UHGV virus genome: UHGV-1351772
Reading direction: 5' to 3' (one strand)
From: a virus
DNA length: 64,000 bases
The translations under genes and the position numbers were made by a program. The notes under the pieces were generated by a model that saw nothing but the letters and a program-made list of their open reading frames with translations, had not been told where the DNA came from and did not search any database. How positions within the stretch are numbered: the first letter of the stretch is position 1; each line of letters opens with the position of its first letter. Shown in pieces: positions 1 to 63,637 of this stretch.

Positions 1-646
1 AAGTAATGTCGTCAAATTCAAAATGAATCATTCGACTGCCTTCCACCCTCGTTCCACCTCCTATTATCATGTAAACGCCCGGTTCATAATAGCGTGACGT
101 TATTGGCTCGATTTTCATTTTCGTGCCGTAGAAACGTAGCCACCGATAGTTGTCAGGCTCATCGTAGCGCTGCACAACAACAACACCCAATGTAAATTCA
201 GTGCGCTCACCTCCAGGGCGCATAGTTGGGGGTTTACTATCTAAGCGTATTGGTGTTGTTGAGAAAGCAAAGCCTAATTGCTTTAGTACAACCAAATCTC
301 CTCGCAGCAACGCGCCAACATCGTTTACTGCATACTCTAACGTTACCTCTCCTTTTTCTTTCAATTGGGCGCAAAAGCGAGAAAATTGTTTTCCCGGCAT
401 CAGTTCAGCAAACCCATTGAGATTCGCGCATCTTCCGTATGATTGATACGTCACGTAAACGATAACCCCATGCTCATCAGCGGGGTTTTTCGAAGCATTT
501 AAAATAAAGCTACCGCCACTGGTTTCAGTGACGTGGATAGGCACGCCAGTGTTATTTTCAAACGTAACAAGTTTCCTCAATCCAGACGTTTGACATAACG
601 AGCGTTCAGAGATACTGGGCACCACATCAATATCAAGACGTTTCAT
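1..646 (-). CDS. hypothetical protein, partial (gene runs off window start); possible virion protein
   Basis: Manual translation from ATG at 646 down to base 1 gives an open frame with no stop (MKRLDIDVVPSISERS...); lies after the terminator of the large structural-like gene. Confidence 0.45.
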   Translation of the reverse strand, partial: MKRLDIDVVPSISERSLCQTSGLRKLVTFENNTGVPIHVTETSGGSFILNASKNPADEHGVIVYVTYQSYGRCANLNGFAELMPGKQFSRFCAQLKEKGEVTLEYAVNDVGALLRGDLVVLKQLGFAFSTTPIRLDSKPPTMRPGGERTEFTLGVVVVQRYDEPDNYRWLRFYGTKMKIEPITSRYYEPGVYMIIGGGTRVEGSRMIHFEFDDIT

Positions 647-743
647 GGGAACCCAAGCTAAATTTTAATGATGACACATATCTTTAGTTTAAACTGTATT
701 TTTTCCATACATACTCCTTTAAAACCAACTGGCCGTCTCCCAT

Positions 744-758
744 TAATAATATCTATCC
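744..758. promoter_or_regulatory. palindromic promoter-like motif TAATAATATCTATCC followed by AT-rich box
   Basis: Variant of recurring AGATAATATCT element; intergenic, next to terminator. Confidence 0.4.
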
Positions 759-780
759 AAAAAATAATAGAAAGAAAAAA

Positions 781-816
781 AATAAAAGGTCTAAGCCCCG
801 AAGGGCTTAGACACTT
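781..816. terminator. rho-independent terminator hairpin (UUCG-type loop) with flanking A/T runs
   Basis: ggtctaagccc-cgaa-gggcttagac stem-loop then T-run; sits just after stop of 828..3122. Confidence 0.6.
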
Positions 817-827
817 TTTATTCGGTA

Positions 828-3122
828 TTATTTACCAGCAGCAGCTTTGCCTTCGCCAGCAACGTTACCTGCTACACCACCTTCGGTTTGTTTCTGACCG
901 TTCTGTTCAACAGAAACATTGTAAGCCAGTTTTTCTTCAACCAGTTTGGTGATGCCTTTAACCCAGATCAGACCAGTGATCGGGCAGTGGCAGATGTGCG
1001 CGTTACGTGGCTGTACGGCCAGCTCTTTAGAGGTAGAACCGTTACGCTGAATGTTGATGTTGGTAACCATGATCGGAGACCAGAAGTGGTTACCCCAGTT
1101 CAGCACGTTGTAGGAACCATCGTCCGCAGTCGGAACTTTCAGGAACCATTGCAGACGACGAGTCCAGGAACCGTCAGCTGCGTTGTAGATACGCCAGCGG
1201 TCATCGTTGGTGGTGATCACTTCGTATTCGTAGCGATCGCCCAGCAGACGTTGGTCGCCCTGTACCAGCAGCAGCATAGATGCAGTCGGTTCGTCAGTTG
1301 CAATAACAACTTTCGGCAGAATGTCCGGATCGGCAGTGTACAGACGCAGCGCAGGAATGAAGCGAGATTCCTGGATAGCCTGAGTTACCTGATTACCGAT
1401 ACGCTGTACCAGGCCCTGACGAGCGTTGATCAGTGCATCTTTGGTATCCAGGGACTGTACAACTTCATCAACGTTGTAGTCAGACTCTTTGAACCACGGA
1501 GCAACCCAGTGACGTCCCAGACCACGAATGGCCGGTTTGTCCCACGGAGTGATCATGCTTGCAGCAGCGTTACGTACCGCTTCGGTGTAAGACAGCGTCT
1601 GAGTGATAGCCAGCTGTTCGTTACGGATGTTAACTGCGGAAATCAGGTCGTCCAGACGTTCGGTATCGTCGTATTCAACTCCAACCGGAGACTTGGTCAG
1701 GATCGGAGAACCGTATTGCAGTTTGTAGTTTTCTTGTTCCCAGATTGGGTCAAGCAGCAGACCCTGGGTACGACGGTTTTCGTTGGTACGAGTACCATCG
1801 AAGCGCCAGCCCATCAGTTCAAGTTTCAGACCGTCCAGGATAACTTTGCCGGTACCAGATTTGGTATCAACTTTGTTACCGGTAGCGTCGTACAGACCTT
1901 CGATTTCCAGTTTGTGACCAGCGATGTCAACTTTACCACCGAACTGACCGGTAGTGAACAGAGACATGTTGATGGTGATCACATAACGCAGGGTGTAGGA
2001 GTTCTGACCAAGCGCTTGCAGTGCCGGAATAGCCGCACCAGTCCAGTCGGTAGTTTTCGCGTTCAGAGAGAACGCAGTACGACGGAATTGCAGTACCAGC
2101 TCACGGCCATCACCTTCAGCAGGACGCTGGAAGGTTGCGAACTGCATGTCACGAACGTGCAGTTTGATGAATTTACCTGCTTTTGCTTCTTCGGTCGGTT
2201 TACGTACGGAAATCAGCAGGCTGCCCAGAGCACAACCCGGTGCGATTTCATCAGTTTCGTCGTAACCTTCCTGAACGATACCCGGATGCGCAGACAGCTG
2301 GAACAGGTTCAGAGTGTCTTTAGCAAAGCTCAGGTAGTTAGTCGGGTACGGAGGTACACGACCCAGGCGAACAGATTCGTTCGGTACCAGTTCTTCGCTT
2401 ACGAAGTATTCAGCGTTTTCACCGGTTTCCATTACGTAAGGAACGATGTTGATCGCTTCGTCCTGAAGAACGGTGTGGTCAGTCAGCGCTTCGTGCAGGT
2501 TACGACGATGATCTTCAACAACGTCTTTGGTCAGTAACGCGTGCATGACACCACGAGAAACGGTGGTCACTTTGGTACGTACGGTAATACCAACGTCATT
2601 GGTGTCAACGGTGATGGTCGGGAACAGAGTCTCAGCGAAACGAGACTGAGTTTCCAGAGCACGTACGTTCAGCGTCCAGGTCAGACCCAGGTTTTTGTCG
2701 TAATCTTTGTTGGTGTAGTATTCCTGAGCAACAACCATACGCTCTTTGCCCCAGTCGCCGTTACCAGCTTGGGAACCAGGAATCGCAACGTCCAGGTTAA
2801 AACGGCTATGGAATTCTGGCTTAGCGTATTCTTGCGCTACTTTTTCTTGCAGGTCCATACCGTGACCAGCAGCACCCAGAATCATTGCAGAAGCAACTTC
2901 CGCAGCGTGGGACATTTTCTTGCCGCCAGCAAACGCGTTTGCGTAGTGCTGTGCAGCATCGTCACGCAGGGTACCAAAAACTTTCGTGTTGCTACGTACA
3001 GACTCACCAGCAACGATGGTGTTCCACATTTCGCCAGCACTGTTGTTACTAATGACGCTTTGTACCAGCGAGTTACCAGCTTGTACGAGTTTCTCCAGAT
3101 TAGAGATTCGGGTATCTTTCAT
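828..3122 (-). CDS. major virion structural protein, putative (major capsid or tail sheath)
   Basis: 764-aa ORF with strongly biased, highly-expressed-like codon usage; natural-looking composition; own terminator; size typical of jumbo-phage capsid/sheath proteins; product is inference. Confidence 0.55.
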   Translation of the reverse strand: MKDTRISNLEKLVQAGNSLVQSVISNNSAGEMWNTIVAGESVRSNTKVFGTLRDDAAQHYANAFAGGKKMSHAAEVASAMILGAAGHGMDLQEKVAQEYAKPEFHSRFNLDVAIPGSQAGNGDWGKERMVVAQEYYTNKDYDKNLGLTWTLNVRALETQSRFAETLFPTITVDTNDVGITVRTKVTTVSRGVMHALLTKDVVEDHRRNLHEALTDHTVLQDEAINIVPYVMETGENAEYFVSEELVPNESVRLGRVPPYPTNYLSFAKDTLNLFQLSAHPGIVQEGYDETDEIAPGCALGSLLISVRKPTEEAKAGKFIKLHVRDMQFATFQRPAEGDGRELVLQFRRTAFSLNAKTTDWTGAAIPALQALGQNSYTLRYVITINMSLFTTGQFGGKVDIAGHKLEIEGLYDATGNKVDTKSGTGKVILDGLKLELMGWRFDGTRTNENRRTQGLLLDPIWEQENYKLQYGSPILTKSPVGVEYDDTERLDDLISAVNIRNEQLAITQTLSYTEAVRNAAASMITPWDKPAIRGLGRHWVAPWFKESDYNVDEVVQSLDTKDALINARQGLVQRIGNQVTQAIQESRFIPALRLYTADPDILPKVVIATDEPTASMLLLVQGDQRLLGDRYEYEVITTNDDRWRIYNAADGSWTRRLQWFLKVPTADDGSYNVLNWGNHFWSPIMVTNINIQRNGSTSKELAVQPRNAHICHCPITGLIWVKGITKLVEEKLAYNVSVEQNGQKQTEGGVAGNVAGEGKAAAGK

Positions 3123-3134
3123 TTGTTTAATACC

Positions 3135-3659
3135 TTAATGAGATAAATGACATGCGTATAATTGCGTCAGCACTTCGTTAGCGGCAAACTGCGTTGAGGT
3201 ACTGAAGCAGTCATCCACGACGCGAGTCTTGGTACGCATATATTTAAAAAGTTCTGCGCAGAACATCTTTTTCGCAGCGTGGTCTTCACCCGAAGAAAAA
3301 CCCGAACCGGACTTCGCTTCTGCAAATGACGCCACAATCGTATCACCACGTTGAGTAAACACCCAACGTACGCGACAAGGAATTGTTTCCCCATATAAAT
3401 CGTCAAGGGAAACCTTTTCGCCTGATTCGACCAGACGTAACACCTGATCATAATATTTACCTGGAAGCACAGGCGGAGCCATTAACGCTTTATAAATAGC
3501 AGAACGACTTACTTCAGGTAAGATAATAGAACTGAAACCATTCGGACAGTCATATAACCAGTTAAAGAACCCTGCCTGGAGCAATTCTATACTTTTAACG
3601 GCAGCGCCTTTATCTATGTTAGGTTGAACTTCCCACGGTGGACTAAAACGAATTTGCAT
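3135..3659 (-). CDS. hypothetical protein
   Basis: 174-aa ORF, same strand as and tightly spaced with neighbours. Confidence 0.5.
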   Translation of the reverse strand: MQIRFSPPWEVQPNIDKGAAVKSIELLQAGFFNWLYDCPNGFSSIILPEVSRSAIYKALMAPPVLPGKYYDQVLRLVESGEKVSLDDLYGETIPCRVRWVFTQRGDTIVASFAEAKSGSGFSSGEDHAAKKMFCAELFKYMRTKTRVVDDCFSTSTQFAANEVLTQLYACHLSH

Positions 3660-3672
3660 TTAAGGATGCTCC

Positions 3673-5235
3673 ATGAATAACAAAATGATGTTGATAACCG
3701 CCTTAGCCACATTATACGCTGAAAGTCTTCTGACCGATCCTGAAAAGGACCACGACATCATAAGAAAAGTGCTGTTAGAGGCTAAGCTTCCTGATTACGC
3801 AGAAGAAGGTGACGAACGTGCCGCCCTCGTCGAAATCAAGGATATCATCACATCCATCATAGACGGCGGTATGCCTTACGACCACACAAACGTCATGAAA
3901 CGTTTGAAACTGGCCACTACGCAAATACGTCCTCTATACGATACGATTACCAAATTCCTGGAAGATGATATTCCAGAAGAACCAGAAGCACGCATCGAGC
4001 ATCTTAATCGCCAAGTAGCACAATACTACTTTCAGTTACGTCAAGCTATTCAAGGCGTACAACTGAAACAAAAATTGGGTCGTACGTTAGGCGCACTGAA
4101 CGGCACTGAAACGCGTGTTGATTTACAAACGGCGCTCAACGACCTTAAGGATACCTTATCCACGTTCAGTGAACGCTCTCATAATAAGATTCCTTCTCTG
4201 GTAGGGGAATTGATTACTGATAATAAAGCACCTTTCGTGCATGTATTCGACTCTATCAGTAAGAAAGCGGCAGGGAACGGGTTGCGTACGGGGTGGAAAG
4301 CAATTAACCAAATGCTCGGTTGTAACAAAGGGATCACCGAAGAACTCTGGCTGATGCCTGCTCTTCCCTTTAACTGTAAATCATTATTCAGTTTATTGCT
4401 CTCTATTAGCATTCCTGTATTCAACACTCCAGAAAAGGTGATGGCGAATGTTAAAGGTGACCTACAACCGGTTATTCTGGATTTAAGTTTAGAAAACGAA
4501 TTGGATGTTAACTTGGCTTACGCGTATCAAGCACTTTACGGACACTTTGAAGGTACAGCTCCGGTAATGGTTGCACCTGAAACGGCAACTGACGAAGAAA
4601 AAGCGCTACACAATGCACAAATGTCAGATTACCTCTGTAGTAAAATGCGGGCAAACGGTTGGGAGTATATTTTCCAAAAACACACAAACTCCGATTTTAA
4701 AATTCACTATTTGAATGATTTGATTTTAGATTTAAAACGTCGAGGTTATCATGTAGCTGGAATACGCGGAGACTATTTCGGTACTATCAGCAAAGCAGGA
4801 CACGGTAACGGCATTGCGGGTAGTGACATTAAAGAAATTTATCGTATCGCGCGAAACATCCAAGTGGTACGTAATCGTGGTTTCCTCTTAGCACCACACC
4901 AAATCTCACCTGAAGGCAAAAAATTAAAAGCACTCGACCCAGCAAGTTTCTGTAAGAGCTTACCTGGTCGTGGTCTTTACGACAACTGCTCTAGCTTAGA
5001 CAACGAAGCTGACGGTGAGATGTATTTTAACAAACGTGTCGTCAGCGGACACAGCTATTTAGAAGTACAACGCGGTAAACACCGTACCATTATTGATACC
5101 AAAGAAGCTTATCATTATACTGTAATACCTTTCCGTGATGTTGGCATTTTGCCATGGGATTGTGATAAAGAAGAAACTGTAACAGCCTCGTCGATTAACG
5201 TATTTACCGGCGGCATGGGTGACGAACTCTTTTGA
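3673..5235 (+). CDS. hypothetical protein
   Basis: 520-aa ORF divergent from 3659; followed by hairpin terminator at 5236..5262. Confidence 0.6.
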   Translation: MNNKMMLITALATLYAESLLTDPEKDHDIIRKVLLEAKLPDYAEEGDERAALVEIKDIITSIIDGGMPYDHTNVMKRLKLATTQIRPLYDTITKFLEDDIPEEPEARIEHLNRQVAQYYFQLRQAIQGVQLKQKLGRTLGALNGTETRVDLQTALNDLKDTLSTFSERSHNKIPSLVGELITDNKAPFVHVFDSISKKAAGNGLRTGWKAINQMLGCNKGITEELWLMPALPFNCKSLFSLLLSISIPVFNTPEKVMANVKGDLQPVILDLSLENELDVNLAYAYQALYGHFEGTAPVMVAPETATDEEKALHNAQMSDYLCSKMRANGWEYIFQKHTNSDFKIHYLNDLILDLKRRGYHVAGIRGDYFGTISKAGHGNGIAGSDIKEIYRIARNIQVVRNRGFLLAPHQISPEGKKLKALDPASFCKSLPGRGLYDNCSSLDNEADGEMYFNKRVVSGHSYLEVQRGKHRTIIDTKEAYHYTVIPFRDVGILPWDCDKEETVTASSINVFTGGMGDELF

Positions 5236-5262
5236 GTCTGGGGAGCTTCGGCTCCCCCTTAT
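5236..5262 (+). terminator. rho-independent terminator
   Basis: ggggagc-ttcg-gctcccc hairpin directly after stop of 3673..5235. Confidence 0.5.
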
Positions 5263-5378
5263 GACCCCTTATGCGTCTCGAAAAACAAAAAAAAACAGAA
5301 GGCTATTAATTATGAACGGGAAACAACTACTGAACTAAGTAGGGGGTGGTGACAACACCCCCTTTATTAGTTAGTAAC

Positions 5379-5540
5379 TTATCTCCTTACAGGTGGTTGG
5401 TGAACATTGTGGTTGTTAACCGTTTTCGGTGCCGCAACGAGGCCGAGACGAACATATTCGTCCATGCGTTGGTTAAACTGAATTTGTTTTTCACGATTTC
5501 GCATCGCGGTATTGGACATCTGTATTTGATATTCGTTCAT
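5379..5540 (-). CDS. small protein, paralog 1 of 3 (about 53 aa)
   Basis: Below ORF-track size cutoff; manual translation MNEYQIQMSNTAMRNREKQIQFNQRMDEYVRLGLVAAPK...; shares xFNxRxxExxxLGL core with 5695..5865; RBS-like aaagg upstream. Confidence 0.4.
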   Translation of the reverse strand: MNEYQIQMSNTAMRNREKQIQFNQRMDEYVRLGLVAAPKTVNNHNVHQPPVRR

Positions 5541-5600
5541 TTTTCATTACCTTTCGTAATGTTGTAAAAACGTCAACAACTTTATGTGTTGACACCGTAC

Positions 5601-5690
5601 AGCAGAGACTGTTCCGCCAGTCTCTGCTGCTTTAACTTCTCTTTCGAAAAGTTAAAGCTATGAAAAGGGGTGCTTCACCACCCCTTTATT
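5601..5690 (-). repeat. three-hairpin RNA module, copy 1
   Basis: Tandem stem-loops: cagcagagactg/cagtctctgctg, gctttaac...gttaaagc (loop ttctctttcgaaaa), ggggtg/cacccc + T-run. Confidence 0.55.
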
Positions 5691-5694
5691 TTAT

Positions 5695-5865
5695 TTAGTA
5701 GTTACTTCTCCTTTCGGTGAAGATTTGTACTCGAGGATTATTAGAAGGTTTAAGCCTTTTATTTAATCCTAGCTGTTGAACTTCTCTTAATCGTTCATTA
5801 AACCTCGCTTGTTCTGCATAGCTGTTTGAGATAGAAGTAAAGATACGTGTATTGTTGTTAGTCAT
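5695..5865 (-). CDS. small protein, paralog 2 of 3 (about 56 aa)
   Basis: Manual translation MTNNNTRIFTSISNSYAEQARFNERLREVQQLGLNKRL...; similar core to paralog 1. Confidence 0.4.
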   Translation of the reverse strand: MTNNNTRIFTSISNSYAEQARFNERLREVQQLGLNKRLKPSNNPRVQIFTERRSNY

Positions 5866-5922
5866 GTTAAAACCTCACACGAGTTGGGGATTAAGCTATT
5901 ACGCGGGTGTAATAGCAACAAG

Positions 5923-6005
5923 TAGGGACTGTACCGGCAGTCCCTACTGCTTTATCTTCTCTTTCGAAAAGATAAAGCGCCTATGGGGAGTGTTGGCGCA
6001 CTCCC
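5923..6005 (-). repeat. three-hairpin RNA module, copy 2
   Basis: Same architecture as copy 1; middle hairpin gctttatc...gataaagc has the identical loop with compensatory stem change (aac/gtt to atc/gat). Confidence 0.55.
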
Positions 6006-6015
6006 CTTTAGGTTG

Positions 6016-6168
6016 TTACCTCCTCTCAACTGCCAACTGGGTGTTTCTTGAATATGCAACTTTGGGCTGTGTTAACGTTGGTTGCGCTATTTCACTAACC
6101 CTTCGCTGAAACTCAAGTTGTTTTGTTGACAACTCGTTTAACCGTCGAAACAGCAGTTCATGTTTCAT
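6016..6168 (-). CDS. small protein, paralog 3 of 3 (about 50 aa)
   Basis: Manual translation MKHELLFRRLNELSTKQLEFQRRVSEIAQ...; weaker similarity to paralogs 1 and 2. Confidence 0.3.
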   Translation of the reverse strand: MKHELLFRRLNELSTKQLEFQRRVSEIAQPTLTQPKVAYSRNTQLAVERR

Positions 6169-6244
6169 GAACTCATCACCTATGTCGATTTTGCGAAAAT
6201 AAATAAAGTGTACCCCTAATCCTTTTCGGGATTAGGGGTTGCTT

Positions 6245-7060
6245 TTATTTAGTCGCTACGTATTGAACATGGCCACATTCCTTACATTCCACGTTGGCTT
6301 TCGGGATTGTCAGGCCGGTTAAAGGAACACGTATTTGGTACTGTGCTCCACATTCTTCACAAACAAAATCGTGTTCTGGATAAACACGACCTTCTAATTT
6401 CTCTTCTTTCCTTAGTGTGCCTGCTAAGAACAGCATCGCACCTAACGCTTCATTAATCTGCTGTTCCCATTCTCCGTCTAACGGGTAAGCGAACGCACGA
6501 GTCAACGTTTCCACCATCTCTGGAGTATTACTTACATAAACGTGTTTCAGTTCAAACTCAACACGCTGTAAGCCAAACAATACGCGTGCTGTTACAGTAA
6601 CATTATCCAACGTTTGTGCAAATACAACGGGATTATCGTCGCCGTACATCGCGAATAACGCAGCACGTTCGTATTCGATATCACTCCACTCGATTAGTTC
6701 TACAGATTTAATCTCTTCCGCAATCGTAGCATTACCGAACGTTTCATGTTCCAATAATCCGACGATAACTTCATTCAACGATTTCAATTGCTGTAAACGA
6801 ATCACAGGATCGGTGTTCACGATAAGCAAACGATGCATTCTGGATTTCAACCAATTAATCGTTCCTTCTACACCGCCCCCAAACGAGCAGATGCTTATCA
6901 CTTCAGGTTCGCGAAGGATAAGAGTGGATTTTCCTGCTGCCGTACTCAAGTAGAGTTTAAAAGACTTATCGCTGGACTCTGCAACGATGGCAATGTCTTC
7001 AGTTGGAACAAAGTTTTCATTGCTCAGTCCACGCGGAAAATAATCTTTAATGGTAATCAT
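6245..7060 (-). CDS. hypothetical protein with C-terminal CxxC...CxxC zinc-ribbon; possible P-loop-like segment
   Basis: 271 aa; CEECG...CKECG near C-terminus; STAAGKST segment resembles a deviant Walker A but is not canonical. Confidence 0.5.
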   Translation of the reverse strand: MITIKDYFPRGLSNENFVPTEDIAIVAESSDKSFKLYLSTAAGKSTLILREPEVISICSFGGGVEGTINWLKSRMHRLLIVNTDPVIRLQQLKSLNEVIVGLLEHETFGNATIAEEIKSVELIEWSDIEYERAALFAMYGDDNPVVFAQTLDNVTVTARVLFGLQRVEFELKHVYVSNTPEMVETLTRAFAYPLDGEWEQQINEALGAMLFLAGTLRKEEKLEGRVYPEHDFVCEECGAQYQIRVPLTGLTIPKANVECKECGHVQYVATK

Positions 7061-7113
7061 CTTTTATGCTCCAATTAATAAAAAATTAAGGGCACCCGAA
7101 GGTGCCTTATACA

Positions 7114-7257
7114 TTAACCACGACCAGTGCACTGTGCAACGGAGTTACCGTTGTCGATGCAAGTGTCGTAGCCTTTGTCGATGTCCAGATACAGGCAACC
7201 CAGAACAACAGCGATAACAACAGCGAAAATAGCTTTTTTGTGTTTTACAGAAATCAT
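7114..7257 (-). CDS. small putative lipoprotein (47 aa)
   Basis: Manual translation MISVKHKKAIFAVVIAVVLGCLYLDIDKGYDTCIDNGNSVAQCTGRG; hydrophobic signal-like segment ending in lipobox-like VLGC; followed by hairpin terminator 7089..7105. Confidence 0.45.
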   Translation of the reverse strand: MISVKHKKAIFAVVIAVVLGCLYLDIDKGYDTCIDNGNSVAQCTGRG

Positions 7258-7460
7258 GATATAACTCCTAATTAGGTATTCGATAAATGAGTATTACGTA
7301 AACTCTCACCTAGGTAATATATATCTGAAATCTTTTTGAATCCATATACCCTCTAGAACGCTCTAAAACGCATTCTGACGCAATTTTCTTTTTAAAGGGT
7401 AATTAGTCGTCTTAGCGGTTAAATGACTTCTGCGTGTCGTTTAGGAATAAATAAAAGGTA

Positions 7461-7494
7461 TTCCCGTTACCCATAGAGGTAACGGGAAGTTTTT
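7461..7494. terminator. rho-independent terminator
   Basis: ttcccgttacc-catagag-gtaacgggaa hairpin plus T-run just after stop of 7493..8299. Confidence 0.55.
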
Positions 7495-8299
7495 ACAGAC
7501 CTTGCATCTTATCCATTACAGCGATTTCAGGATCGTTAATGCCCGTCTTCGAAGAAATCATAAAGCGCTTATCGCTAATAGCTTCTACAGATTCGCGAAT
7601 AAACAATGACTTTTCTTCCGCAACAGGGAGAATAGAATCGTTATCCTGCGGACCCACAAGCTGACAACTGAATGGCACATAGCTGTTGAAAGTCACATAA
7701 GGACCTAACTGCAAGACCGGATACACTTCATTAAAGTTATTTGATGTACCGCTGTCTGTAGAAATAACAGAATAGCGCACCACCGCACGAACCGCTGTTG
7801 TGTATTCAGGATCGCGGGCTTCACCCACCACGGTAAAACGAAACGCATTGAAGTCGTAGTCTTCCGACTCACTAAAGTGTGAAGGGAGAATACGTTCAAT
7901 ATACTGAGGATAGGTTTCTTGTTGCCCTGGAATAACCGCTGCAGCTAATTTCTGAGCATAGAAGTAACAATAAGCAAAGCCGTATTGCGCTTCTAAAGCA
8001 CCAGACACCACGGCAGTTGTGATCGCGTGCAGGAACAACAAATGGCCTAACGTCCCTTTTTCTTCGATTGGTAATAAGCGACAATTCTGTACACCGTCTA
8101 CGGTATAAATAACAGAAATCGTTTTGTCAGCACTGGACGCCATGATGTAGTCCAACTGGCGTTGTTCGCCACCAGGAATAACATTAAGGCAACGTTCTAA
8201 CAACTTCGACGGTTTCGAAAAATTCTCTTCTTCGAACTTGTCGATTTGAATTAACGTTTGGCCAGACATTCTGAAAGTAAGTAGATTACTCATTAACAA
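7493..8299 (-). CDS. hypothetical protein
   Basis: 268-aa ORF. Confidence 0.55.
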   Translation of the reverse strand: MLMSNLLTFRMSGQTLIQIDKFEEENFSKPSKLLERCLNVIPGGEQRQLDYIMASSADKTISVIYTVDGVQNCRLLPIEEKGTLGHLLFLHAITTAVVSGALEAQYGFAYCYFYAQKLAAAVIPGQQETYPQYIERILPSHFSESEDYDFNAFRFTVVGEARDPEYTTAVRAVVRYSVISTDSGTSNNFNEVYPVLQLGPYVTFNSYVPFSCQLVGPQDNDSILPVAEEKSLFIRESVEAISDKRFMISSKTGINDPEIAVMDKMQGL

Positions 8300-8325
8300 A
8301 TCCTTTAGGTTACGGACGACATAAT

Positions 8326-9645
8326 TTACGTAGCGGTTGTAAATTTTTCATTAGTCAACCACAACGTCAATTGACTAATGGTATTAAATTGTGGGGACGC
8401 CATCGAACCACCGTCAACGGCAGCTTGGAAAACTTCACCAACCAACGTCCCATAACGAGTGTATACACCGTAATTATTCGCATACAGATATTTTACTGCC
8501 ATACCCGGCTGCAATAAACCGTACGCTGAACGGTTCCAGGTCGTTGCGGTCAGTGTCCCTCTGGCGGCAGCCAACTTAGAACGACGAGGCTTATCTGTGT
8601 CGCTGAAGTGCTCATTTGGATCAATAGGCGCATTAACAACACCACCGGGGTACTGTGTAGGGTCTGCTGCCGAAACAAACGAATCTGACGTCGTTGCTGA
8701 AACGTCGCCTGGAGAGAAAGAACTTGCACGACCATCTAAGGCACGGATTGAACCCACGCGGTAACCCGTTCCCTGGTTTAACGCAAGAGCGTCTTTGTCT
8801 TCGAAGGTGTGAACATCACCACCACAAATCAGATAAATGACGTCACCTGCAATGTGACACGTTTTATCTAAATAGGCAACTTTCTCTCTTGGAAGGTTAA
8901 TTACCACCAGTTTCTTTTTTGCCGTAGAGAATTTCTTAGAATCCCACGGTTGAAAGATATGCCAACGGTGTTTATACAAAAAGACACCTAATCCTTGGCT
9001 ATACACACCGTAGCGGTTTTGAATGAAATCGAAAACCGAAAGAAAACTTTGCGAATCGGGAATCAAAATGTCGCGATAAGGCTGTTGTTCTTCTTCCTCG
9101 TATTCCACACCAACCAACTGACCTTCTGGTGCATCCCCAGTAGGTAACGTATCAGCAAGTAATGCACGAACGACACTTAATCCGTCGGTTTCGTGATAAA
9201 TCCCTCCTACCTGACGGCAACGAAGGAACCACATCGATTCGTCCATCAACTCCAACGTCACCACACCCAACCCTTTTTGGTCAGATTCACCCAAGAACAT
9301 CGTGGGCGATTCCATATCAGGATCGTGATTGTTAACTACGATTCCTCGGTAGTTCAGTTGCGCAATGGTTTTCTTGTTCATTGTCCGCATCAGGATTTTA
9401 ACTGATAAATCCCCTTCTGCCGACGACGTAAGAATACGTTGCTGGCTCAGTGGAATCACCACACTGAGGTGCGTGATGGTCGTTAAATCCTGAGCGAAAT
9501 TACTGGCATGGATTATCGACATGGTTTTGTAAACGTCAATCGTCACCCCACGAACCGTGATAAGGGGTACGTAGTCGATGGCCGGTAATCCCGCCGCTTG
9601 TGCAATGTGCACGTTTGCTATGTTCTGTAACCGACCAAACGACAT
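8326..9645 (-). CDS. hypothetical protein
   Basis: 439-aa ORF. Confidence 0.55.
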   Translation of the reverse strand: MSFGRLQNIANVHIAQAAGLPAIDYVPLITVRGVTIDVYKTMSIIHASNFAQDLTTITHLSVVIPLSQQRILTSSAEGDLSVKILMRTMNKKTIAQLNYRGIVVNNHDPDMESPTMFLGESDQKGLGVVTLELMDESMWFLRCRQVGGIYHETDGLSVVRALLADTLPTGDAPEGQLVGVEYEEEEQQPYRDILIPDSQSFLSVFDFIQNRYGVYSQGLGVFLYKHRWHIFQPWDSKKFSTAKKKLVVINLPREKVAYLDKTCHIAGDVIYLICGGDVHTFEDKDALALNQGTGYRVGSIRALDGRASSFSPGDVSATTSDSFVSAADPTQYPGGVVNAPIDPNEHFSDTDKPRRSKLAAARGTLTATTWNRSAYGLLQPGMAVKYLYANNYGVYTRYGTLVGEVFQAAVDGGSMASPQFNTISQLTLWLTNEKFTTAT

Positions 9646-10286
9646 TACAGAATTCCTCCACGTCTACGGTATATCTGTTCAATACGGTGCATAATCGTAT
9701 CGTTGAACTGATGCCGCTCTGTTTCCAATCGGACTTCGCCAAATAACGCTTGTACGGAAACCGCCATTGTTACTTCAGGTTTCTTAAAGTAACCGTAACG
9801 GTTCGCTACCGGGAACAGTTTACGCGCTAACGCATTAAACTGACGCAAGCCCTCCATAGGGACTTTACGTGTTGTCAGGTGTGGGGTCTGCATGTAATTT
9901 AGCCAATCGGCTAAGTGTTCCATGATATACCCGTACACGATAATCCCGTCATGTGGGTCGTGGACGTCTAACGCCGCGCCAGATTCTGCATAAACCGCAA
10001 CTTCGAAAGGTCGCATGTATACGGTCTTTTTATTGAGCAGTATCGCGCGTGCTTTTTTCTCGTCTTCCGGTAAGAACAACCCATGTTCCTGAGACATGTA
10101 CGTTGAAATCGTCGTCCATTCAGGGACACGCCACCCCACCCACTTGTGAAACAGCATAAATGCTGCGCTACGTTTTTCAGCCACGTTAATCCCTCGCATA
10201 CCGTAACAACAAATACACCATCGGAATATAGTAGAACTGCGCATCCTTCGGCAAACGGTAAACTTCTTCAAACAACCGTAATGCAA
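9645..10286 (-). CDS. hypothetical protein (true start possibly internal Met near 10199)
   Basis: 213-aa ORF; longest-ORF start overlaps upstream gene by about 100 nt. Confidence 0.45.
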   Translation of the reverse strand: MHYGCLKKFTVCRRMRSSTIFRWCICCYGMRGINVAEKRSAAFMLFHKWVGWRVPEWTTISTYMSQEHGLFLPEDEKKARAILLNKKTVYMRPFEVAVYAESGAALDVHDPHDGIIVYGYIMEHLADWLNYMQTPHLTTRKVPMEGLRQFNALARKLFPVANRYGYFKKPEVTMAVSVQALFGEVRLETERHQFNDTIMHRIEQIYRRRGGIL

Positions 10287-11556
10287 TTACCGTTGACAGT
10301 GGGCGTTTATTCAGATAGAGATATAAACCGTATTCTAATAACGAACTGTACGAACCCTCGTAGAACGTTGGGCTTAACAAATACGGTTCGTAAGTCAGTG
10401 GTAGAAATGCAGGGATTGATTCACCTTCATTACCCCGATAATTCTCCACTTCAACCGGTTCAAACTCCGTCCACTTCGGCCACTGTCCAGGGAAACGTTG
10501 CGCCATCCCATAGCCCGGTTTTAATTCATCGGTAAAGAATCGGGTATCCGAAATTAATGACCAGGTCACAGAATTCCGATGCTGCATCGTACGGAAGGTT
10601 TTTACCTGCCAGACACTAGAATCACGTTTGTAATCCGCTAAGAACGTTGGCGATTGATTTAACAACGCAGTCCAGACCGTTTCAATATCTTCCACACGCA
10701 TTGGTGGATGCGGATAAATTTGAATATCTTTACCAACGGTGCGTAAGCCTACAGAGCGTACGAACTGTGCCAAGAACACATCGTAGTACGCACGACTACG
10801 CAACCCATCGCTGTGTCGATCGTGCGGGAAAAGCAACGTTGCCGTTTCCCCATCGTAAAACCGTTTTACGTAAGTCTGTTCAATGTCTGCAATCGCATCA
10901 ACGACCTTCAAAAACGCACGATATTCTTTCGGTGTCAGTAACGTATCACCGCCCGTCCAGGCACGCTCAGAAACGTAATAATACTCACGGACCGTACACC
11001 GGCGAATGGTTTCTGCAACTTCTGGATCAACTTCAAACAACAGCGTATATTCAATGTTATACGTTGCAATTTTGTTATTGGACATCCGTATGACGTTCGT
11101 GACATTGAACAACGCGAACCGTCCGTCTCCAATCGGTGCAACGAAAAAACACCCTTCGTTGGGAATCACCGAGTTCGCCATTGTTGCGGCACCGGACATG
11201 GTAAACGTTTTGTTTGTTGTGTCCTGAGAACGATCTAACGGTGTGGTAACCCGCAATTCTAACCCGATGATTTTCTCTACTTGCTGGTCAGGCGTAAGTA
11301 CCTTCGAATCGAAGAATTTCTTCGCGTCGTTACGCCCTTTCAGGAAATTAAAGAAATCCACTGTCCAGGAAGACCCTTCCAGGTATTTCATCAGGTACTG
11401 TTTCGGTATACGCTCTAAATCCGTCACCGTTGTACGTGTCGGTTGTGTCACCACGTTCGTGGTTTCCTTCACACCGTCTTGTGGTTTATTCAACTCAGGG
11501 ATCGGGCGTTCCACCGGTTCGAAAGAAGACGGTTTATCACGCTTCGCTTTGAGCAT
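10186..11556 (-). CDS. hypothetical protein
   Basis: 456-aa ORF. Confidence 0.55.
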   Translation of the reverse strand: MLKAKRDKPSSFEPVERPIPELNKPQDGVKETTNVVTQPTRTTVTDLERIPKQYLMKYLEGSSWTVDFFNFLKGRNDAKKFFDSKVLTPDQQVEKIIGLELRVTTPLDRSQDTTNKTFTMSGAATMANSVIPNEGCFFVAPIGDGRFALFNVTNVIRMSNNKIATYNIEYTLLFEVDPEVAETIRRCTVREYYYVSERAWTGGDTLLTPKEYRAFLKVVDAIADIEQTYVKRFYDGETATLLFPHDRHSDGLRSRAYYDVFLAQFVRSVGLRTVGKDIQIYPHPPMRVEDIETVWTALLNQSPTFLADYKRDSSVWQVKTFRTMQHRNSVTWSLISDTRFFTDELKPGYGMAQRFPGQWPKWTEFEPVEVENYRGNEGESIPAFLPLTYEPYLLSPTFYEGSYSSLLEYGLYLYLNKRPLSTVIALRLFEEVYRLPKDAQFYYIPMVYLLLRYARD

Positions 11557-13045: not shown

Positions 13046-13133
13046 TGGCTTGTTCCTTCGTTATAGTCATATCACAGGCGCGAAATGAAAAAAAATAAAA
13101 GGGAACCGAAGTCCCCTTTTACGTTTATCCTAC

Positions 13134-14258: not shown

Positions 14259-14260
14259 TT

Positions 14261-14812
14261 TTAACCTTCCTGGTATTGTCTAATTCCGTAATCAGGTAGA
14301 ATGTTTTCTACTGTGGTTTTCGGTACAACTGAAAGCTGGTTGTATAAATTCAACAAATCCTCGCGCAGTAACTTCTGCTCGATATCAAGTTTATAACAAG
14401 CCAGTTCTTTTTCTAGCGGTTTAAGTAATACAACGCGTGTTTGAAAACCGTCAATAGGCTCAGGAACACGATAACCGCGACGACGATAGAACGTTTCCAG
14501 CTTCGAATAATCACGAATGTATGTTTTCGTCAGTGTAGAATAACCTGCGTCTAACATAAACTTGTAGAACGGACGTAAAGCGATGAAACGATTATATTCC
14601 AGGTGCACCGGAATATAGAATTCGTAATTGCCGTAAGTGAGCGTGGAGAGTTGGGAACCATTACAATGCACACAGTTAATAAAAATAGCCAGTCCAATCA
14701 TTACCGGGCGTGGGACGATAAGAGTTTTATCGCCAAACTGAATGCGGAAAATTTCCTGCTGCAGGCTGGTTTCAGATACGACTTCAGCGTCTAAGATATT
14801 AAATTTGTTCAT
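14261..14812 (-). CDS. hypothetical protein
   Basis: 183-aa ORF upstream of DHFR operon. Confidence 0.5.
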   Translation of the reverse strand: MNKFNILDAEVVSETSLQQEIFRIQFGDKTLIVPRPVMIGLAIFINCVHCNGSQLSTLTYGNYEFYIPVHLEYNRFIALRPFYKFMLDAGYSTLTKTYIRDYSKLETFYRRRGYRVPEPIDGFQTRVVLLKPLEKELACYKLDIEQKLLREDLLNLYNQLSVVPKTTVENILPDYGIRQYQEG

Positions 14813-14870
14813 TTCTATTCTCCTAAAGGTAATAAACTGGTCGTTAAAAGATTACAATGTAATCTCACTA

Positions 14871-14886
14871 AGATAATATCTATCTG
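14871..14886. promoter_or_regulatory. palindromic promoter-like motif AGATAATATCTATCTG with AT-rich box
   Basis: Consensus copy in intergenic region between minus-strand genes. Confidence 0.45.
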
Positions 14887-14919
14887 TGATTATTTTTAAT
14901 AGAAAAAAAAAAGAAAAGG

Positions 14920-14952
14920 GAGAACCACCCCATTACAAGGTGGTTCTCTTAC
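14920..14952. terminator. rho-independent terminator
   Basis: gagaaccacc-ccattacaa-ggtggttctc hairpin flanked by A-run and T-run; just after stop of 14967..16229. Confidence 0.6.
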
Positions 14953-14966
14953 TAAACAATCAGGGA

Positions 14967-16229: not shown

Positions 16230-16247
16230 TTTAAGCTTTTCCTCTAA

Positions 16248-16270
16248 GGGGAACGTATTGTTCCCCTGAT
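16248..16270. terminator. terminator hairpin between the tandem paralogs
   Basis: ggggaac-gtatt-gttcccc. Confidence 0.45.
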
Positions 16271-16311
16271 GATTTATTTCAAGAACTGTACGGAACTACG
16301 AATCTAAATGA

Positions 16312-17583: not shown

Positions 17584-17642
17584 TTCGTTTATTTCCTTTG
17601 GTTATATAACCCAATTACACGCCCCTAGAATGAGGGGCCCCC

Positions 17643-42110: not shown

Positions 42111-42126
42111 GGATAATATCTATCTC
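42111..42126. promoter_or_regulatory. palindromic promoter-like motif GGATAATATCTATCTC with AT-rich box
   Basis: In divergent intergenic region, upstream of ATG 42146. Confidence 0.5.
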
Positions 42127-45645: not shown

Positions 45646-47358
45646 TTATTGATTAAACCATGCTACTTCTTCGCATTTCTTTCTGTTTTGAATTAACAGA
45701 AATTCTGCTAACATGTTCTGAAGTCGCGGATGAGGTGAATAGTCCAACATCACTGTCCCACACCGTAACATTCTGGCTGCTTCCGGTGTTGCCCTGAGAT
45801 TGAAGTTGAACGGTGCAATATGTTCACGAACCAACAAGCTGAGAGAATCCTTCAATGTTGATTGTTCGTAAGTATTACGATGCTTACGGTATGCTTGTGG
45901 ATAATATCTATCCGTTTTTATTTTAATCTCATTATCGATTGGCTCGATAGGATACCCGCCATTTAGCGGTGCCCGGATCATTTCACAACTTAACAACTGT
46001 GCAATCTCAGGCATTCCGTAATAGATGTAAACGGCTTGGGATATACCCATCGCGTTCTTAAACGCTTCTGCGTCGATTTCCTTGTATGTACGACGATCTG
46101 CAAATCGGTGCATCACTGCCGCCACCAACCATTCGTAGAGTTCGTAGAAAGGATATTGATGGTTAATGTTGATGGAATCTATCAACACTTTCACATCAGC
46201 GGGAGCAATATCGAGATTCAAAGCACGCACCGCACGACGATAGTCATTAAAGAATTCTTGAGTACGAACGAATTCCTTCATTGGTGCTTTAGTCCGAGCT
46301 TGAACCAGGTCAATCGACGAAGTTTTCCCCTTCTCGCCGTTGAACATGATTTTCTCAGGATTCGCTTTTAGCATCACGTTTTGACCGGAAATTTTTCCCG
46401 CGAAGCCCGTTTCAATTTCTTGCCGAATATTGAAATACATCCCCGCCACGATGTTGTTTTCAACCATCGTACCTGGTGGTAGTTCGGCACCGATTAACTT
46501 CATCGCAATTAAACGGATAACGGCGAACGCTATGATGTATTCCTCTACCATATCCGTACCGTAGCCGCAGATAGATGCCAGGACGGTAAGGTTTGCAGTA
46601 TTAGGTCCTTTACTCCCCCCGTCCTGAACTTTCGAAATCACCGACACTAAAAACTCACGCAACTTTGTAATGGCTGGCAGTGTAGCAATCTCGGTATCAG
46701 ACAACAGTTCCATGCAGTAGGTCAGGTTATAAACACTTTTGCGCTTCGACTCAACAGAAGCACGTGTTGCAGGAAAAGCGTCCAAAATCAAGAATACGGG
46801 AATAAACGGTTTTGTCATCAAAGACAAAATCACCAATTCGTAATAATCTTGTACGATATACGTCATCTCTTTTGGATAATTCGACGACATCTCTTCGTAC
46901 GTTTCGTGGACGTTTTGAGGAATCCACACCGAACCGTGTGGATAAAGCTGGCGGAATCTATCTGCGTGATGAAATTTAGCAATTCTCGCGACGAGCGTGG
47001 GGACGTGTTCACGAATAACTTCTGGGGGTTCATTAGCTAACAACTCTAATTCTTCGTAAACTGAAAACAGTTCGCTTTTCTCTTCAGGTGTTAAAGTTGA
47101 CCAATAACGCTCGATTTCCATGAACATGATTTTATCGTGCGTTACGATCTGTCCGAAACTATCGCGTACGTCTGGCACATTCACGTCTTTACGTCCATTT
47201 CGGAAACCATTAAACGCGACCTCTTTTTCGCCGTACTTTATCACTAAACGGTCACGATTCTTTTCAATGCGCATTTTAAAATCTCCAGGAATAACATAGT
47301 CGTCCACTAAGATAAAATCTATCTCAGATAACTTCGACTGTATTCTACACACATACAC
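45646..47358 (-). CDS. hypothetical protein
   Basis: 570-aa ORF. Confidence 0.55.
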   Translation of the reverse strand: MYVCRIQSKLSEIDFILVDDYVIPGDFKMRIEKNRDRLVIKYGEKEVAFNGFRNGRKDVNVPDVRDSFGQIVTHDKIMFMEIERYWSTLTPEEKSELFSVYEELELLANEPPEVIREHVPTLVARIAKFHHADRFRQLYPHGSVWIPQNVHETYEEMSSNYPKEMTYIVQDYYELVILSLMTKPFIPVFLILDAFPATRASVESKRKSVYNLTYCMELLSDTEIATLPAITKLREFLVSVISKVQDGGSKGPNTANLTVLASICGYGTDMVEEYIIAFAVIRLIAMKLIGAELPPGTMVENNIVAGMYFNIRQEIETGFAGKISGQNVMLKANPEKIMFNGEKGKTSSIDLVQARTKAPMKEFVRTQEFFNDYRRAVRALNLDIAPADVKVLIDSININHQYPFYELYEWLVAAVMHRFADRRTYKEIDAEAFKNAMGISQAVYIYYGMPEIAQLLSCEMIRAPLNGGYPIEPIDNEIKIKTDRYYPQAYRKHRNTYEQSTLKDSLSLLVREHIAPFNFNLRATPEAARMLRCGTVMLDYSPHPRLQNMLAEFLLIQNRKKCEEVAWFNQ

Positions 47359-55740: not shown

Positions 55741-55754
55741 AGATAATATCTAGC
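55741..55754. promoter_or_regulatory. palindromic promoter-like motif AGATAATATCTAGC with downstream GATATTTT
   Basis: First of two tandem copies in the divergent region between 55691 and 55900. Confidence 0.55.
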
Positions 55755-55820
55755 TAAGATATTTTAGAATACACGTAAAACACACATAGCTTAAAATGAT
55801 TAACTACCGAACCATCACAT

Positions 55821-55834
55821 AGATAATATCTTTC
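55821..55834. promoter_or_regulatory. palindromic promoter-like motif AGATAATATCTTTC with downstream GATATTTT
   Basis: Second tandem copy, 80 nt from the first. Confidence 0.55.
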
Positions 55835-63622: not shown

Positions 63623-63637
63623 AGATAATATCTATAC
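63623..63637. promoter_or_regulatory. palindromic promoter-like motif AGATAATATCTATAC with downstream AAATATT
   Basis: Consensus copy in divergent region upstream of ATG 63756. Confidence 0.5.

What the first reader, a model, noticed from the sequence alone, without database searches (positions are those of the whole stretch)
744..816. Promoter-like motif sits directly beside a bidirectional terminator in two junctions between minus-strand genes
At 744..816 and again at 14871..14952 the motif is followed, after an A-rich spacer (aatagaaagaaaaaaaa / aatagaaaaaaaaaagaaaa), by a GC-rich hairpin and a T-run. The module is conserved as a unit. Read on the plus strand it would give a very short (~50-70 nt) transcript ending at the hairpin; read on the minus strand it is terminator then promoter for the next gene. 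Either a compact terminator-promoter cassette or a tiny structured RNA is plausible.
Basis: seen in the sequence. Interest (0 to 1): 0.4.

Follow-up and report, generated by a model that had tools for sequence, protein, structure and literature searches.

The report
Terminator followed by phage early promoter
These two spots are ordinary gene boundaries in a giant (phiKZ/SPN3US-like) phage: a hairpin terminator ends a capsid gene, and about 30 bases later the phage's own conserved early-promoter motif starts the next operon.

Summary
The sequence features are real. The window is a jumbo phage related to Salmonella phage SPN3US and Erwinia phage Asesino, with most genes on the minus strand.

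Read on the minus strand, both junctions have the same layout:
- the stop codon of a late head gene (major capsid protein, or a phiKZ-type internal head protein);
- a 10-12 bp GC-rich hairpin;
- a long U-tract;
- an AT-rich stretch, then GATAGATATTAT(CT);
- a 5'UTR, a Shine-Dalgarno site and an ATG.

The motif occurs 9 times in the window, always in that orientation, and 23 times in the SPN3US genome, all co-oriented with genes. It fits the published early-promoter consensus of phiKZ-related phages (OBP/N1M2 type ...RRYAKATATTATYWWADTG) nearly base for base.

The capsid-gene junction is kept in eight phages. The motif stays near-invariant, while the hairpin stem changes through compensatory substitutions.

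The plus-strand "tiny RNA" reading fails:
- junction 2 has no plus-strand T-run;
- the two hairpins are unrelated in sequence;
- no Rfam family reaches threshold;
- most motif copies have no hairpin next to them.

Only junction 1 looks bidirectional, and that is not conserved.

Verdict: an intrinsic terminator followed by a promoter for a phage-encoded RNA polymerase, probably the virion enzyme. It is a new instance of a known kind, of low interest. No transcript data were available.

The parts
828..3122 (-). Major capsid (head) protein gene, the upstream gene of junction 1. Its stop codon is at 828-830.
   Evidence: ORF list. phrog_3231 major head protein, E 8.5e-280. About 83% nucleotide identity to SPN3US gp75 and Asesino gp91.
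789..812 (-). Junction 1 terminator hairpin GUCUAAGCCC-UUCG-GGGCUUAGAC, 15 nt after the capsid-gene stop codon.
   Evidence: Terminator scan. Fold energy -17.3 kcal/mol. Eight phages carry five different stem sequences; 100% of cells pair and 9 of 10 pairs show changes on both sides.
775..788 (-). U-tract of the junction 1 terminator (minus strand CTTTTATTTTTTTT).
   Evidence: Read directly from the sequence.
736..769 (-). Junction 1 promoter: AT-rich upstream stretch, then core GATAGATATTATTA (757-744), then ATGGGAGA. The inferred transcription start is near 739-741.
   Evidence: Exact 12-mer. PWM score 32.9. Matches the published OBP early-promoter consensus with 3 mismatches, 0.00 expected by chance. 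The start position is inferred from 'motif centred at about -10'.
658..708 (-). 16-codon ORF with a strong Shine-Dalgarno site (AAAGGAG), the first reading frame after the junction 1 promoter.
   Evidence: SPN3US has a different short ORF at the same place.
1..646 (-). Homologue of SPN3US gp76, cut by the window edge. [quoted passage not shown]
   Evidence: phrog_7286, E 6.6e-67. The N-terminus MKRLDIDVVP resembles SPN3US gp76 MNRYDLDVQP. The gp77 assignment is from PMC5105663.
14967..16229 (-). phiKZ-type internal head protein gene, the upstream gene of junction 2.
   Evidence: Pfam PF12699 phiKZ_IP, E 4.7e-55. phrog_2497 internal head protein. Orthologues are SPN3US gp54 and Asesino gp71.
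14920..14948 (-). Junction 2 terminator hairpin GAGAACCACCUU-GUAAU-GGGGUGGUUCUC, 18 nt after the stop codon.
   Evidence: Fold energy -18.1 kcal/mol. The orthologous position in SPN3US and Asesino holds a different hairpin, AAUCCCCCA-CUUCG-GUGGGGGAUU, followed by a T-run.
14903..14919 (-). U-tract of the junction 2 terminator (CCTTTTCTTTTTTTTTT). There is no T-run on the plus-strand side of this hairpin.
14863..14896 (-). Junction 2 promoter: AAAATAATCACA, then core GATAGATATTATCT (14884-14871), then TAGTGAGA. The inferred transcription start is near 14866-14868.
   Evidence: PWM score 44.6. Matches the OBP consensus with 2 mismatches. The orthologues carry the variant GATATATATTACCTAGGTGAGA.
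14848..14866 (-). Small stem-loop at the inferred 5' end of the junction 2 mRNA (GAGAUUAC-AUU-GUAAUCUU).
   Evidence: Folds of -5.9, -7.1 and -6.9 kcal/mol in the window, SPN3US and Asesino. The stem is kept through a G-U pair in SPN3US and a compensatory change in Asesino.
14261..14812 (-). First gene of the operon started at junction 2. A dihydrofolate reductase gene follows at 13420-14145.
   Evidence: phrog_12369. DHFR: PF00186, E 2.6e-45.
7312..7325 (-). Further motif copy (variant GATATATATTACCT), before a 47-codon ORF.
42111..42124 (-). Further motif copy, 29 nt before an RNA polymerase beta-like subunit gene (39845-42082).
   Evidence: phrog_3295, E 1e-250, and PF00562.
45899..45912 (-). 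Further motif copy inside gene 45646-47274. SPN3US has a copy at the same relative place.
47310..47323 (-). Further motif copy, before gene 45646-47274.
55741..55834 (-). Two tandem motif copies, 80 nt apart, before the 615-aa gene 53844-55691. The arrangement is also tandem in SPN3US.
63623..63636 (-). Further motif copy, before the 107-aa gene 63266-63589.

Best explanation
Each junction is an operon boundary on the minus strand of a phiKZ-related (SPN3US/Asesino-like) jumbo phage.

1. Transcription of a heavily expressed late head gene (major capsid protein at junction 1, internal head protein at junction 2) ends at a Rho-independent terminator. This is a 10-12 bp GC-rich hairpin followed by a long U-tract.
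2. About 31-35 nt further on lies the phage's own conserved promoter, aAAATAtcTgaGATAGATATTATCTtAgTGA. It belongs to the early-promoter family of phiKZ-related phages. In phiKZ, AR9 and phiR1-37 that motif sits at about -10 of early transcripts attributed to the injected virion RNA polymerase.
3. The promoter starts a new mRNA with a 30-60 nt leader and a Shine-Dalgarno site. The operons it starts hold early functions: the gp76 homologue (followed in SPN3US by the non-virion RNA polymerase beta N-terminal fragment) at junction 1, and a dihydrofolate reductase operon at junction 2.

**Shown here:** the anatomy, the motif's orientation and copy number, its fit to the published consensus, its conservation, and compensatory changes in the hairpin.

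**Inferred:** that transcripts really start and stop at these points, and that the virion RNA polymerase is the enzyme that uses the promoter.
For: **Identity of the phage**
- The capsid gene is about 83% identical to those of SPN3US and Asesino.
- The window encodes a phiKZ_IP internal head protein and four RNA polymerase beta/beta'-like subunit genes.

**The motif behaves like a promoter**
- All 9 copies in the window point the same way as the genes. All sit 29-60 nt before an ATG with a ribosome-binding site, except the copy inside gene 45646-47274 and the upstream copy of the tandem pair.
- The SPN3US genome has 23 copies. All are on its coding strand and all but one are intergenic. Shuffled genomes give 0-1.
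- The published OBP early-promoter consensus finds 5 window sites, including both junctions, all on the minus strand, with 0.00 expected. The consensus table is in PMC7058600.
- Reviews and transcript maps place this motif class at about -10 of early transcripts.

**Downstream genes fit early expression**
- An RNA polymerase subunit gene follows the copy at 42111.
- SPN3US gp77, which follows gp76 downstream of junction 1, is the non-virion RNA polymerase beta N-terminal fragment.
- A dihydrofolate reductase gene lies in the junction 2 operon.

**The hairpins behave like terminators**
- They lie 15-18 nt after co-oriented stop codons and are followed by U-tracts.
- Junction 1 has the same layout in 8 phages. 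The motif is near-invariant, while the stem takes 5 different sequences that always pair.
- Junction 2 has the same layout in SPN3US and Asesino.
- Intrinsic terminators are used in vivo by related phages.
Against: - No transcript 5' or 3' ends are available for this phage or for any SPN3US-group phage in the library searched.
- The 'early / virion polymerase' label rests on motif similarity to phages where it was mapped, not on data from this group.
- In 201phi2-1, not all non-virion polymerase genes have early promoters, so downstream gene function is only weak evidence of timing.
- One motif copy (45899-45912) lies inside a coding region.
- The core AGATA-T-TATCT is nearly palindromic, so a DNA-binding regulator cannot be excluded on sequence alone.
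Confidence: 0.85

Rival explanations
1. The motif is a real phage promoter on the minus strand, but it is used by the non-virion RNA polymerase (middle class, or throughout infection) rather than by the injected virion polymerase.
For: No timing data exist for this phage group. In 201phi2-1 some polymerase and structural genes are driven by middle promoters. AR9 has genes with both early and late promoters.
Against: In phiKZ-related phages the only strongly conserved motif found by bioinformatics is the early one; middle and late motifs are weak (TATG, or a weak AT-rich element). The window motif fits the early consensus of OBP/N1M2/201phi2-1/phiKZ. The copy number, about 23 per genome, is like the 28-32 early promoters of phiKZ.
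Confidence: 0.1
2. A short (50-70 nt) plus-strand RNA starts at the motif and ends at the hairpin.
For: The core is nearly palindromic, and its plus-strand image scores weakly at junction 2 (15.4 against 44.6). Junction 1 has a plus-strand T-run after the hairpin. Plus-strand folds have z-scores of -3.4, but these are driven by the terminator hairpin alone.
Against: Junction 2 has no plus-strand T-run. The plus orientation does not reach the PWM threshold at junction 1. Most motif copies have no nearby hairpin. The two hairpins are unrelated in sequence. In the orthologous junctions the plus-strand A-run/T-run symmetry is absent. No Rfam family reaches its gathering score; the best sub-threshold matches are generic terminator look-alikes.
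Confidence: 0.03
3. The motif is a host sigma-70 promoter (TATTAT as the -10 hexamer) and not a promoter for a phage polymerase.
For: TATTAT differs from TATAAT at one position. The region upstream is AT-rich.
Against: The sigma-70 scan found no -35/-10 pair using this hexamer at either junction, and sigma-70-like sites are fewer than in shuffles across 1-20000 (19 against 28.4). The conserved block extends well beyond a -10 hexamer on both sides and matches phage-specific consensus sequences. phiKZ development is independent of host polymerase.
Confidence: 0.03
4. The near-palindromic core AGATA-T-TATCT is an operator for a dimeric phage DNA-binding protein and not the promoter itself.
For: The core has dyad symmetry. 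The reverse-strand image scores above threshold at three sites.
Against: The orientation relative to genes is strict (9 of 9 in the window, 23 of 23 in SPN3US). The flanks are conserved and asymmetric: an AT-rich stretch upstream, YWWAGTGA downstream. The phiKZ form TATATTAC is not palindromic.
Confidence: 0.04

Closest known systems
Early (virion RNA polymerase) promoters of phiKZ-related jumbo phages: OBP, N1M2, 201phi2-1, EL and phiKZ (consensus table in PMC7058600; mapped starts in phiKZ and 201phi2-1)
   Same: - The core ...RRYAKATATTATYWWADTG matches, with an AT/T-rich stretch upstream.
- There are about 20-30 copies per genome, co-oriented with genes at operon starts.
- The phage encodes split multisubunit RNA polymerases.
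- Some copies precede RNA polymerase subunit genes.
   Different: - This is an SPN3US/Asesino-group phage of enterobacteria, for which I found no published promoter map.
- The preferred core is GATAGATATTATCT, with a minor variant GATATATATTACCT that contains phiKZ's TATATTAC.
- Start sites and polymerase dependence are untested here.
Rho-independent (intrinsic) terminators, including those mapped in 201phi2-1 and phiKZ
   Same: - A GC-rich stem-loop (often with a cUUCGg loop) is followed by a U-tract, just after the stop codon of a highly expressed gene.
- The structure is kept through compensatory changes.
   Different: - 3' ends are not mapped here.
- Which phage polymerase is stopped is unknown.
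- The junction 1 hairpin is flanked by A and T runs on both sides, but no converging gene needs that.
Terminator-promoter gene junctions of other lytic phages: insulated transcription units in compact genomes (general knowledge)
   Same: The terminator and the next promoter share one short intergenic region of about 120-155 nt. The terminator separates a late structural gene from a differently timed operon.
   Different: Nothing notable. The only local feature is that the U-tract runs directly into the promoter's AT-rich upstream region.
Phage N4 virion RNA polymerase hairpin promoters
   Same: A virion-carried polymerase transcribes early genes, and a hairpin lies near the promoter at two sites.
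   Different: The N4 promoter is itself a small DNA hairpin recognised by a single-subunit enzyme. Here 6-7 of the 9 motif copies have no hairpin, and the hairpin lies upstream, attached to the preceding gene. The resemblance is therefore superficial.

Membership tests
phiKZ-related jumbo phage early promoter | The host genome is a jumbo phage that encodes two sets of split multisubunit RNA polymerase beta/beta' subunits. | tested here: met
   Four beta/beta'-like subunit genes lie in the window (phrog_3295, 3015, 2962, 2987; PF00562), together with a phiKZ_IP head protein. The closest relatives are SPN3US and Asesino.
phiKZ-related jumbo phage early promoter | A highly conserved AT-rich block of about 10 nt (TATATTAC / AKATATTATY) with an AT/T-rich upstream stretch, matching the published consensus. 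| tested here: met
   The OBP consensus WWWWWTTTYARRYAKATATTATYWWADTG finds 5 sites at up to 3 mismatches, with 0.00 expected. The core RRYAKATATTAYYW finds 9 sites against 1.85 expected.
phiKZ-related jumbo phage early promoter | Tens of copies per genome, co-oriented with genes, at the start of operons. | tested here: met
   9 of 9 copies in the window and 23 of 23 in SPN3US are co-oriented. All but one per genome are intergenic, 29-90 nt before a start codon.
phiKZ-related jumbo phage early promoter | The motif is centred at about -10 of mapped 5' ends of early transcripts. | not testable with these tools
   No RNA data exist for this phage or its group in the searched literature.
phiKZ-related jumbo phage early promoter | Transcription is independent of host polymerase and of new protein synthesis (it depends on the virion polymerase). 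| not testable with these tools
   This needs infection experiments with rifampicin and chloramphenicol, or in vitro transcription.
Rho-independent terminator | A stable GC-rich stem-loop immediately followed by a U-tract on the transcribed strand. | tested here: met
   On the minus strand the stems are 10 and 12-13 bp, at -17.3 and -18.1 kcal/mol. The tails are CTTTTATTTTTT and CCTTTTCTTTTT.
Rho-independent terminator | Lies just downstream of the stop codon of a co-oriented gene. | tested here: met
   15 nt after the capsid-gene stop codon and 18 nt after the internal head protein stop codon.
Rho-independent terminator | Structure, and not sequence, is conserved among relatives. | tested here: met
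   Five distinct stems occur in 8 phages. 100% of cells pair, 9 of 10 pairs change on both sides, and 0 of 500 shuffles reach this. Caveat: some stems may be replacements and not descendants.
Rho-independent terminator | Transcript 3' ends map to the U-tract. | not testable with these tools
   No Term-seq or 3'-end data are available.
Bidirectional terminator | A U-tract on both strands, serving converging transcription. | tested here: not met
   Junction 2 has no plus-strand T-run. Junction 1 has one, but both neighbouring genes are on the minus strand, and the orthologous junctions lack the symmetric A-run. Hairpins at converging gene ends (candidate bidirectional terminators) do exist elsewhere in the window, at 24570-24597 and 29930-29957.
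Small structured RNA / known RNA family | A match to a curated RNA family, or a conserved sequence and structure with its own promoter and terminator on one strand. | tested here: not met
   No Rfam match reaches the gathering score at either junction. The two hairpins share no sequence. There is no plus-strand terminator at junction 2.

The most novel reading that the evidence does not exclude
The cassette could be more than two independent signals that happen to be neighbours. The terminator's U-tract might double as the T/AT-rich upstream element of the early promoter, giving a fused 'stop-and-restart' unit that is selected as one piece. This could also allow regulated read-through (antitermination) from the late capsid transcript into the polymerase operon late in infection.
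Probability: 0.08. Interest if true: 0.35.

Novelty: new member of a known kind. Interest (0 to 1): 0.15.

Why it matters
The practical value is for annotation.
- The motif GATAGATATTATCT (variant GATATATATTACCT) can be used to mark probable early transcription units in SPN3US-, Asesino- and Machina-like phages, for which I found no published promoter map.
- It gives precise, testable predictions of start and stop sites.
- It suggests that genes for the non-virion RNA polymerase sit directly behind early promoters, as the phiKZ model expects.

It does not reveal a new kind of element.

Tried and rejected
- **Literature on this phage group.** I searched for an SPN3US-group promoter or transcriptome. 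Nothing specific turned up. The primary phiKZ paper (PMC4178840) is not held, so phiKZ facts come from reviews and later maps and from the consensus table in PMC7058600.
- **Known RNA families.** I ran Rfam at gathering threshold on the whole window, and at E up to 1 on each junction. Only sub-threshold terminator look-alikes appeared.
- **Duplicated or mobile module.** Rejected. Outside the motif and the A/T run the two junctions do not align, and hairpin identity is at shuffle level.
- **N4-like hairpin promoter.** Rejected, because most motif copies lack a hairpin.
- **Host sigma-70 promoter.** The consensus scan gave nothing at the motif.
- **The 615-aa gene behind the tandem promoters.** I asked whether it is a solved-structure protein such as the nuclear-shell protein. 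No PDB sequence match was found, so this stays open.
- **My own terminator scan.** The strict version under-calls. It missed several visible hairpins with a spacer before the T-run, so the fraction of promoters preceded by a terminator (about one third in SPN3US) is approximate.

Full report
**1. What the window is**

The window is part of a jumbo phage related to Salmonella phage SPN3US (Seoulvirus) and to Erwinia phages Asesino/phiEaH2 (Erskinevirus) and Caitlin/Huxley (Machinavirus).
- The gene at 828-3122 (minus strand) is the major head protein. It is about 83% identical in nucleotides to SPN3US gp75 and Asesino gp91.
- The window also encodes a phiKZ-type internal head protein (PF12699), a DNA polymerase, dihydrofolate reductase, and four split RNA polymerase beta/beta'-like subunit genes.
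- Most genes lie on the minus strand (46 of 64 ORFs in a rough call that includes probable spurious plus-strand ORFs).
- No phage in the collection is closer than about 83% in the capsid gene, so this is a new relative of a well-known group.

**2. Checking the observation**

- ATAATATCTATC is at 746-757 and 14873-14884.
- With up to 1 mismatch there are 8 copies, all in one orientation, against 0.27 expected. A ninth variant copy is at 7312-7325.
- The quoted A-rich spacers are present at 766-782 and 14898-14917. The hairpins are at 789-812 and 14920-14948.
- Two details do not hold:
  - Only junction 1 has a plus-strand T-run after the hairpin. Junction 2 is followed by TTACTAAACAAT.
  - The two 'modules' share only the motif and the A/T run. 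The hairpins are no more alike than shuffled sequence (308 of 500 shuffles).

**3. Anatomy on the minus strand**

Both junctions read the same way:
- the stop codon of a head gene;
- 15-18 nt of spacer;
- a GC-rich hairpin (-17.3 and -18.1 kcal/mol);
- a long U-tract (CTTTTATTTTTTTT and CCTTTTCTTTTTTTTTT);
- an AT-rich stretch;
- GATAGATATTAT(CT);
- a 30-60 nt leader, a Shine-Dalgarno site and an ATG.

**4. The motif is the phage's own promoter**

- The nine window copies give the extended consensus aAAATAtcTgaGATAGATATTATCTtAgTGA. The flanks are asymmetric.
- All nine point the same way as the genes. Each lies 29-60 nt before a start codon with a ribosome-binding site, with two exceptions:
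  - One copy lies inside a gene.
  - One is the upstream member of a tandem pair.
- I fetched the whole SPN3US genome. The same model finds 23 sites there.
  - All 23 are on the coding strand, and all but one are intergenic.
  - Shuffled genomes give 0-1.
  - Sites orthologous to the window's junctions 1 and 2, the tandem pair, the intragenic copy and the copy before the RNA polymerase gene are all present.
- A paper on Klebsiella jumbo phage N1M2 (PMC7058600) tabulates predicted early promoters of phiKZ-related phages:

| Phage | Predicted early promoter |
|---|---|
| N1M2 | TBYAWWWWWTTTCARRYAKATATTATYWAAGTGWA (31 sites) |
| OBP | BSHAWWWWWTTTYARRYAKATATTATYWWADTG |
| 201phi2-1 | ...BTATATTACDWHDGTG |
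| phiKZ | TATATTAC |

- Searching the window with the OBP consensus at up to 3 mismatches returns 5 sites. Both junctions are among them, all are on the minus strand, and 0.00 are expected by chance.
- Reviews and transcript maps support the class assignment:
  - Every RNA-polymerase-encoding jumbo phage has such a conserved AT-rich block of about 10 nt.
  - It is centred near -10 of early transcripts.
  - It is attributed to the injected virion polymerase.
  - phiKZ has 28-32 of them.
- The downstream genes fit early expression:
  - The copy at 42111 precedes an RNA polymerase beta-like subunit gene.
  - Junction 1 precedes the gp76 homologue. [quoted passage not shown]
  - Junction 2 heads an operon with dihydrofolate reductase.
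- By analogy, the inferred transcription starts are near 739-741 and 14866-14868.

**5. The hairpins are terminators of the upstream genes**

- The junction after the capsid gene has the same layout in eight phages: the window, SPN3US, Asesino, phiEaH2, Caitlin, Huxley, SPAsTU and pEa_SNUABM_29.
- In all eight the motif GATAGATATTATCT is essentially invariant.
- The 10-bp stem takes five different sequences around a constant UUCG loop.
  - Every cell pairs, and 9 of 10 pairs change on both sides.
  - 0 of 500 shuffles reach this, and slid registers fall to 29-53% paired.
- This contrast is what a protein-read DNA signal next to an RNA-structure signal should look like: a fixed sequence for the motif, and a fixed structure with free sequence for the hairpin.
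- Junction 2 in SPN3US and Asesino has a different hairpin plus T-run, followed by the variant core GATATATATTACCTAGGTGAGA.
- In SPN3US about a third of the motif sites have a hairpin 20-70 nt upstream, so the pairing is a common design in these phages.
- It is not obligatory. In the window only 2 of 9 sites have a strict terminator adjacent, and one more has a weak hairpin.
- Intrinsic terminators are used in vivo by the related phage 201phi2-1.

**6. The plus-strand small-RNA reading**

- It needs a plus-strand promoter and terminator at both sites.
- The motif's core AGATA-T-TATCT is nearly palindromic, which probably made it look usable on either strand.
- With its flanks, the plus orientation scores 15.4 against 44.6 at junction 2, and falls below threshold at junction 1.
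- Junction 2 has no plus-strand U-tract.
- The symmetric A-run of junction 1 is absent from its orthologues.
- No Rfam family reaches its threshold.
- The favourable plus-strand fold z-scores come from the terminator hairpin alone.

**7. Comparison with what is known, and novelty**

- The promoter meets the sequence, copy-number and context criteria of the phiKZ-family early promoter.
- The two functional criteria could not be tested:
  - mapped 5' ends;
  - independence from host polymerase and from protein synthesis.
- The hairpins meet the sequence criteria of intrinsic terminators.
- 'Bidirectional terminator' and 'small RNA' fail their tests.
- I found no published promoter map for the SPN3US group in the library. 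The instance is therefore new, but the kind is well known.

**8. Verdict**

This is an ordinary terminator-then-promoter operon boundary.
- Confidence is about 0.85 for that reading.
- Within it, I put about 0.7 on the promoter being early and read by the virion polymerase.
- Interest is low.

Noticed in passing
window 52090-52407 (minus), with ORFs 52260-53759 and 51802-52086: A group I intron (Rfam RF00028, 56.9 bits, E 8.6e-12) splits an RNA polymerase beta-like subunit gene. The two flanking ORFs match consecutive parts of phrog_2987, at profile positions 1-417 and 412-477.
   Followed up: partly
window 24570-24597 and 29930-29957: An identical 28-nt hairpin, TTACCCTACTCCCGAAGGAGTAGGGTAA, occurs twice, each time between converging genes. 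One copy (24570-24597) has T-runs on both strands; the other passes the strict scan only on the minus strand. The same stem (ACCCTACTCC-TTCG-GGAGTAGGGT) follows the capsid gene in phage Huxley and precedes a promoter at SPN3US position 113975.
   Followed up: no
window 14848-14866 (minus): A small stem-loop lies at the inferred 5' end of the junction 2 mRNA. It is kept in SPN3US through a G-U pair and in Asesino through a compensatory change. It may be a 5'-end stabiliser.
   Followed up: partly
window 55741-55834 (minus); SPN3US 15603-15729: Two tandem copies of the promoter motif, 80-93 nt apart, precede a conserved 615-aa protein of unknown function (phrog_8316). The protein has no PDB sequence match. 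The tandem arrangement is conserved in SPN3US.
   Followed up: partly
window 45899-45912 (minus); SPN3US 25215-25248: A perfect core motif lies inside the 3' part of a coding region, about 285 nt before the next gene. SPN3US has a copy at the same relative place, which suggests a conserved internal promoter.
   Followed up: partly
window 658-708 and 646 (minus): The junction 1 promoter is followed by a 16-codon ORF with a strong Shine-Dalgarno site. The gp76 homologue then starts 12 nt after that ORF's stop codon, without a recognisable ribosome-binding site. SPN3US has an unrelated 27-codon ORF plus a second promoter copy at this place. Asesino and phiEaH2 have a full gene of about 270-280 aa there.
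   Followed up: no
window 5300-6250: About 1 kb after the plus-strand helicase gene holds six plus-strand terminator-like GC-rich hairpins and only very short ORFs.
   Followed up: no
terminator hairpins in the window and in loci L001-L014: Many terminator hairpins of this phage group use the same C(UUCG)G tetraloop, whatever the stem sequence.
   Followed up: no
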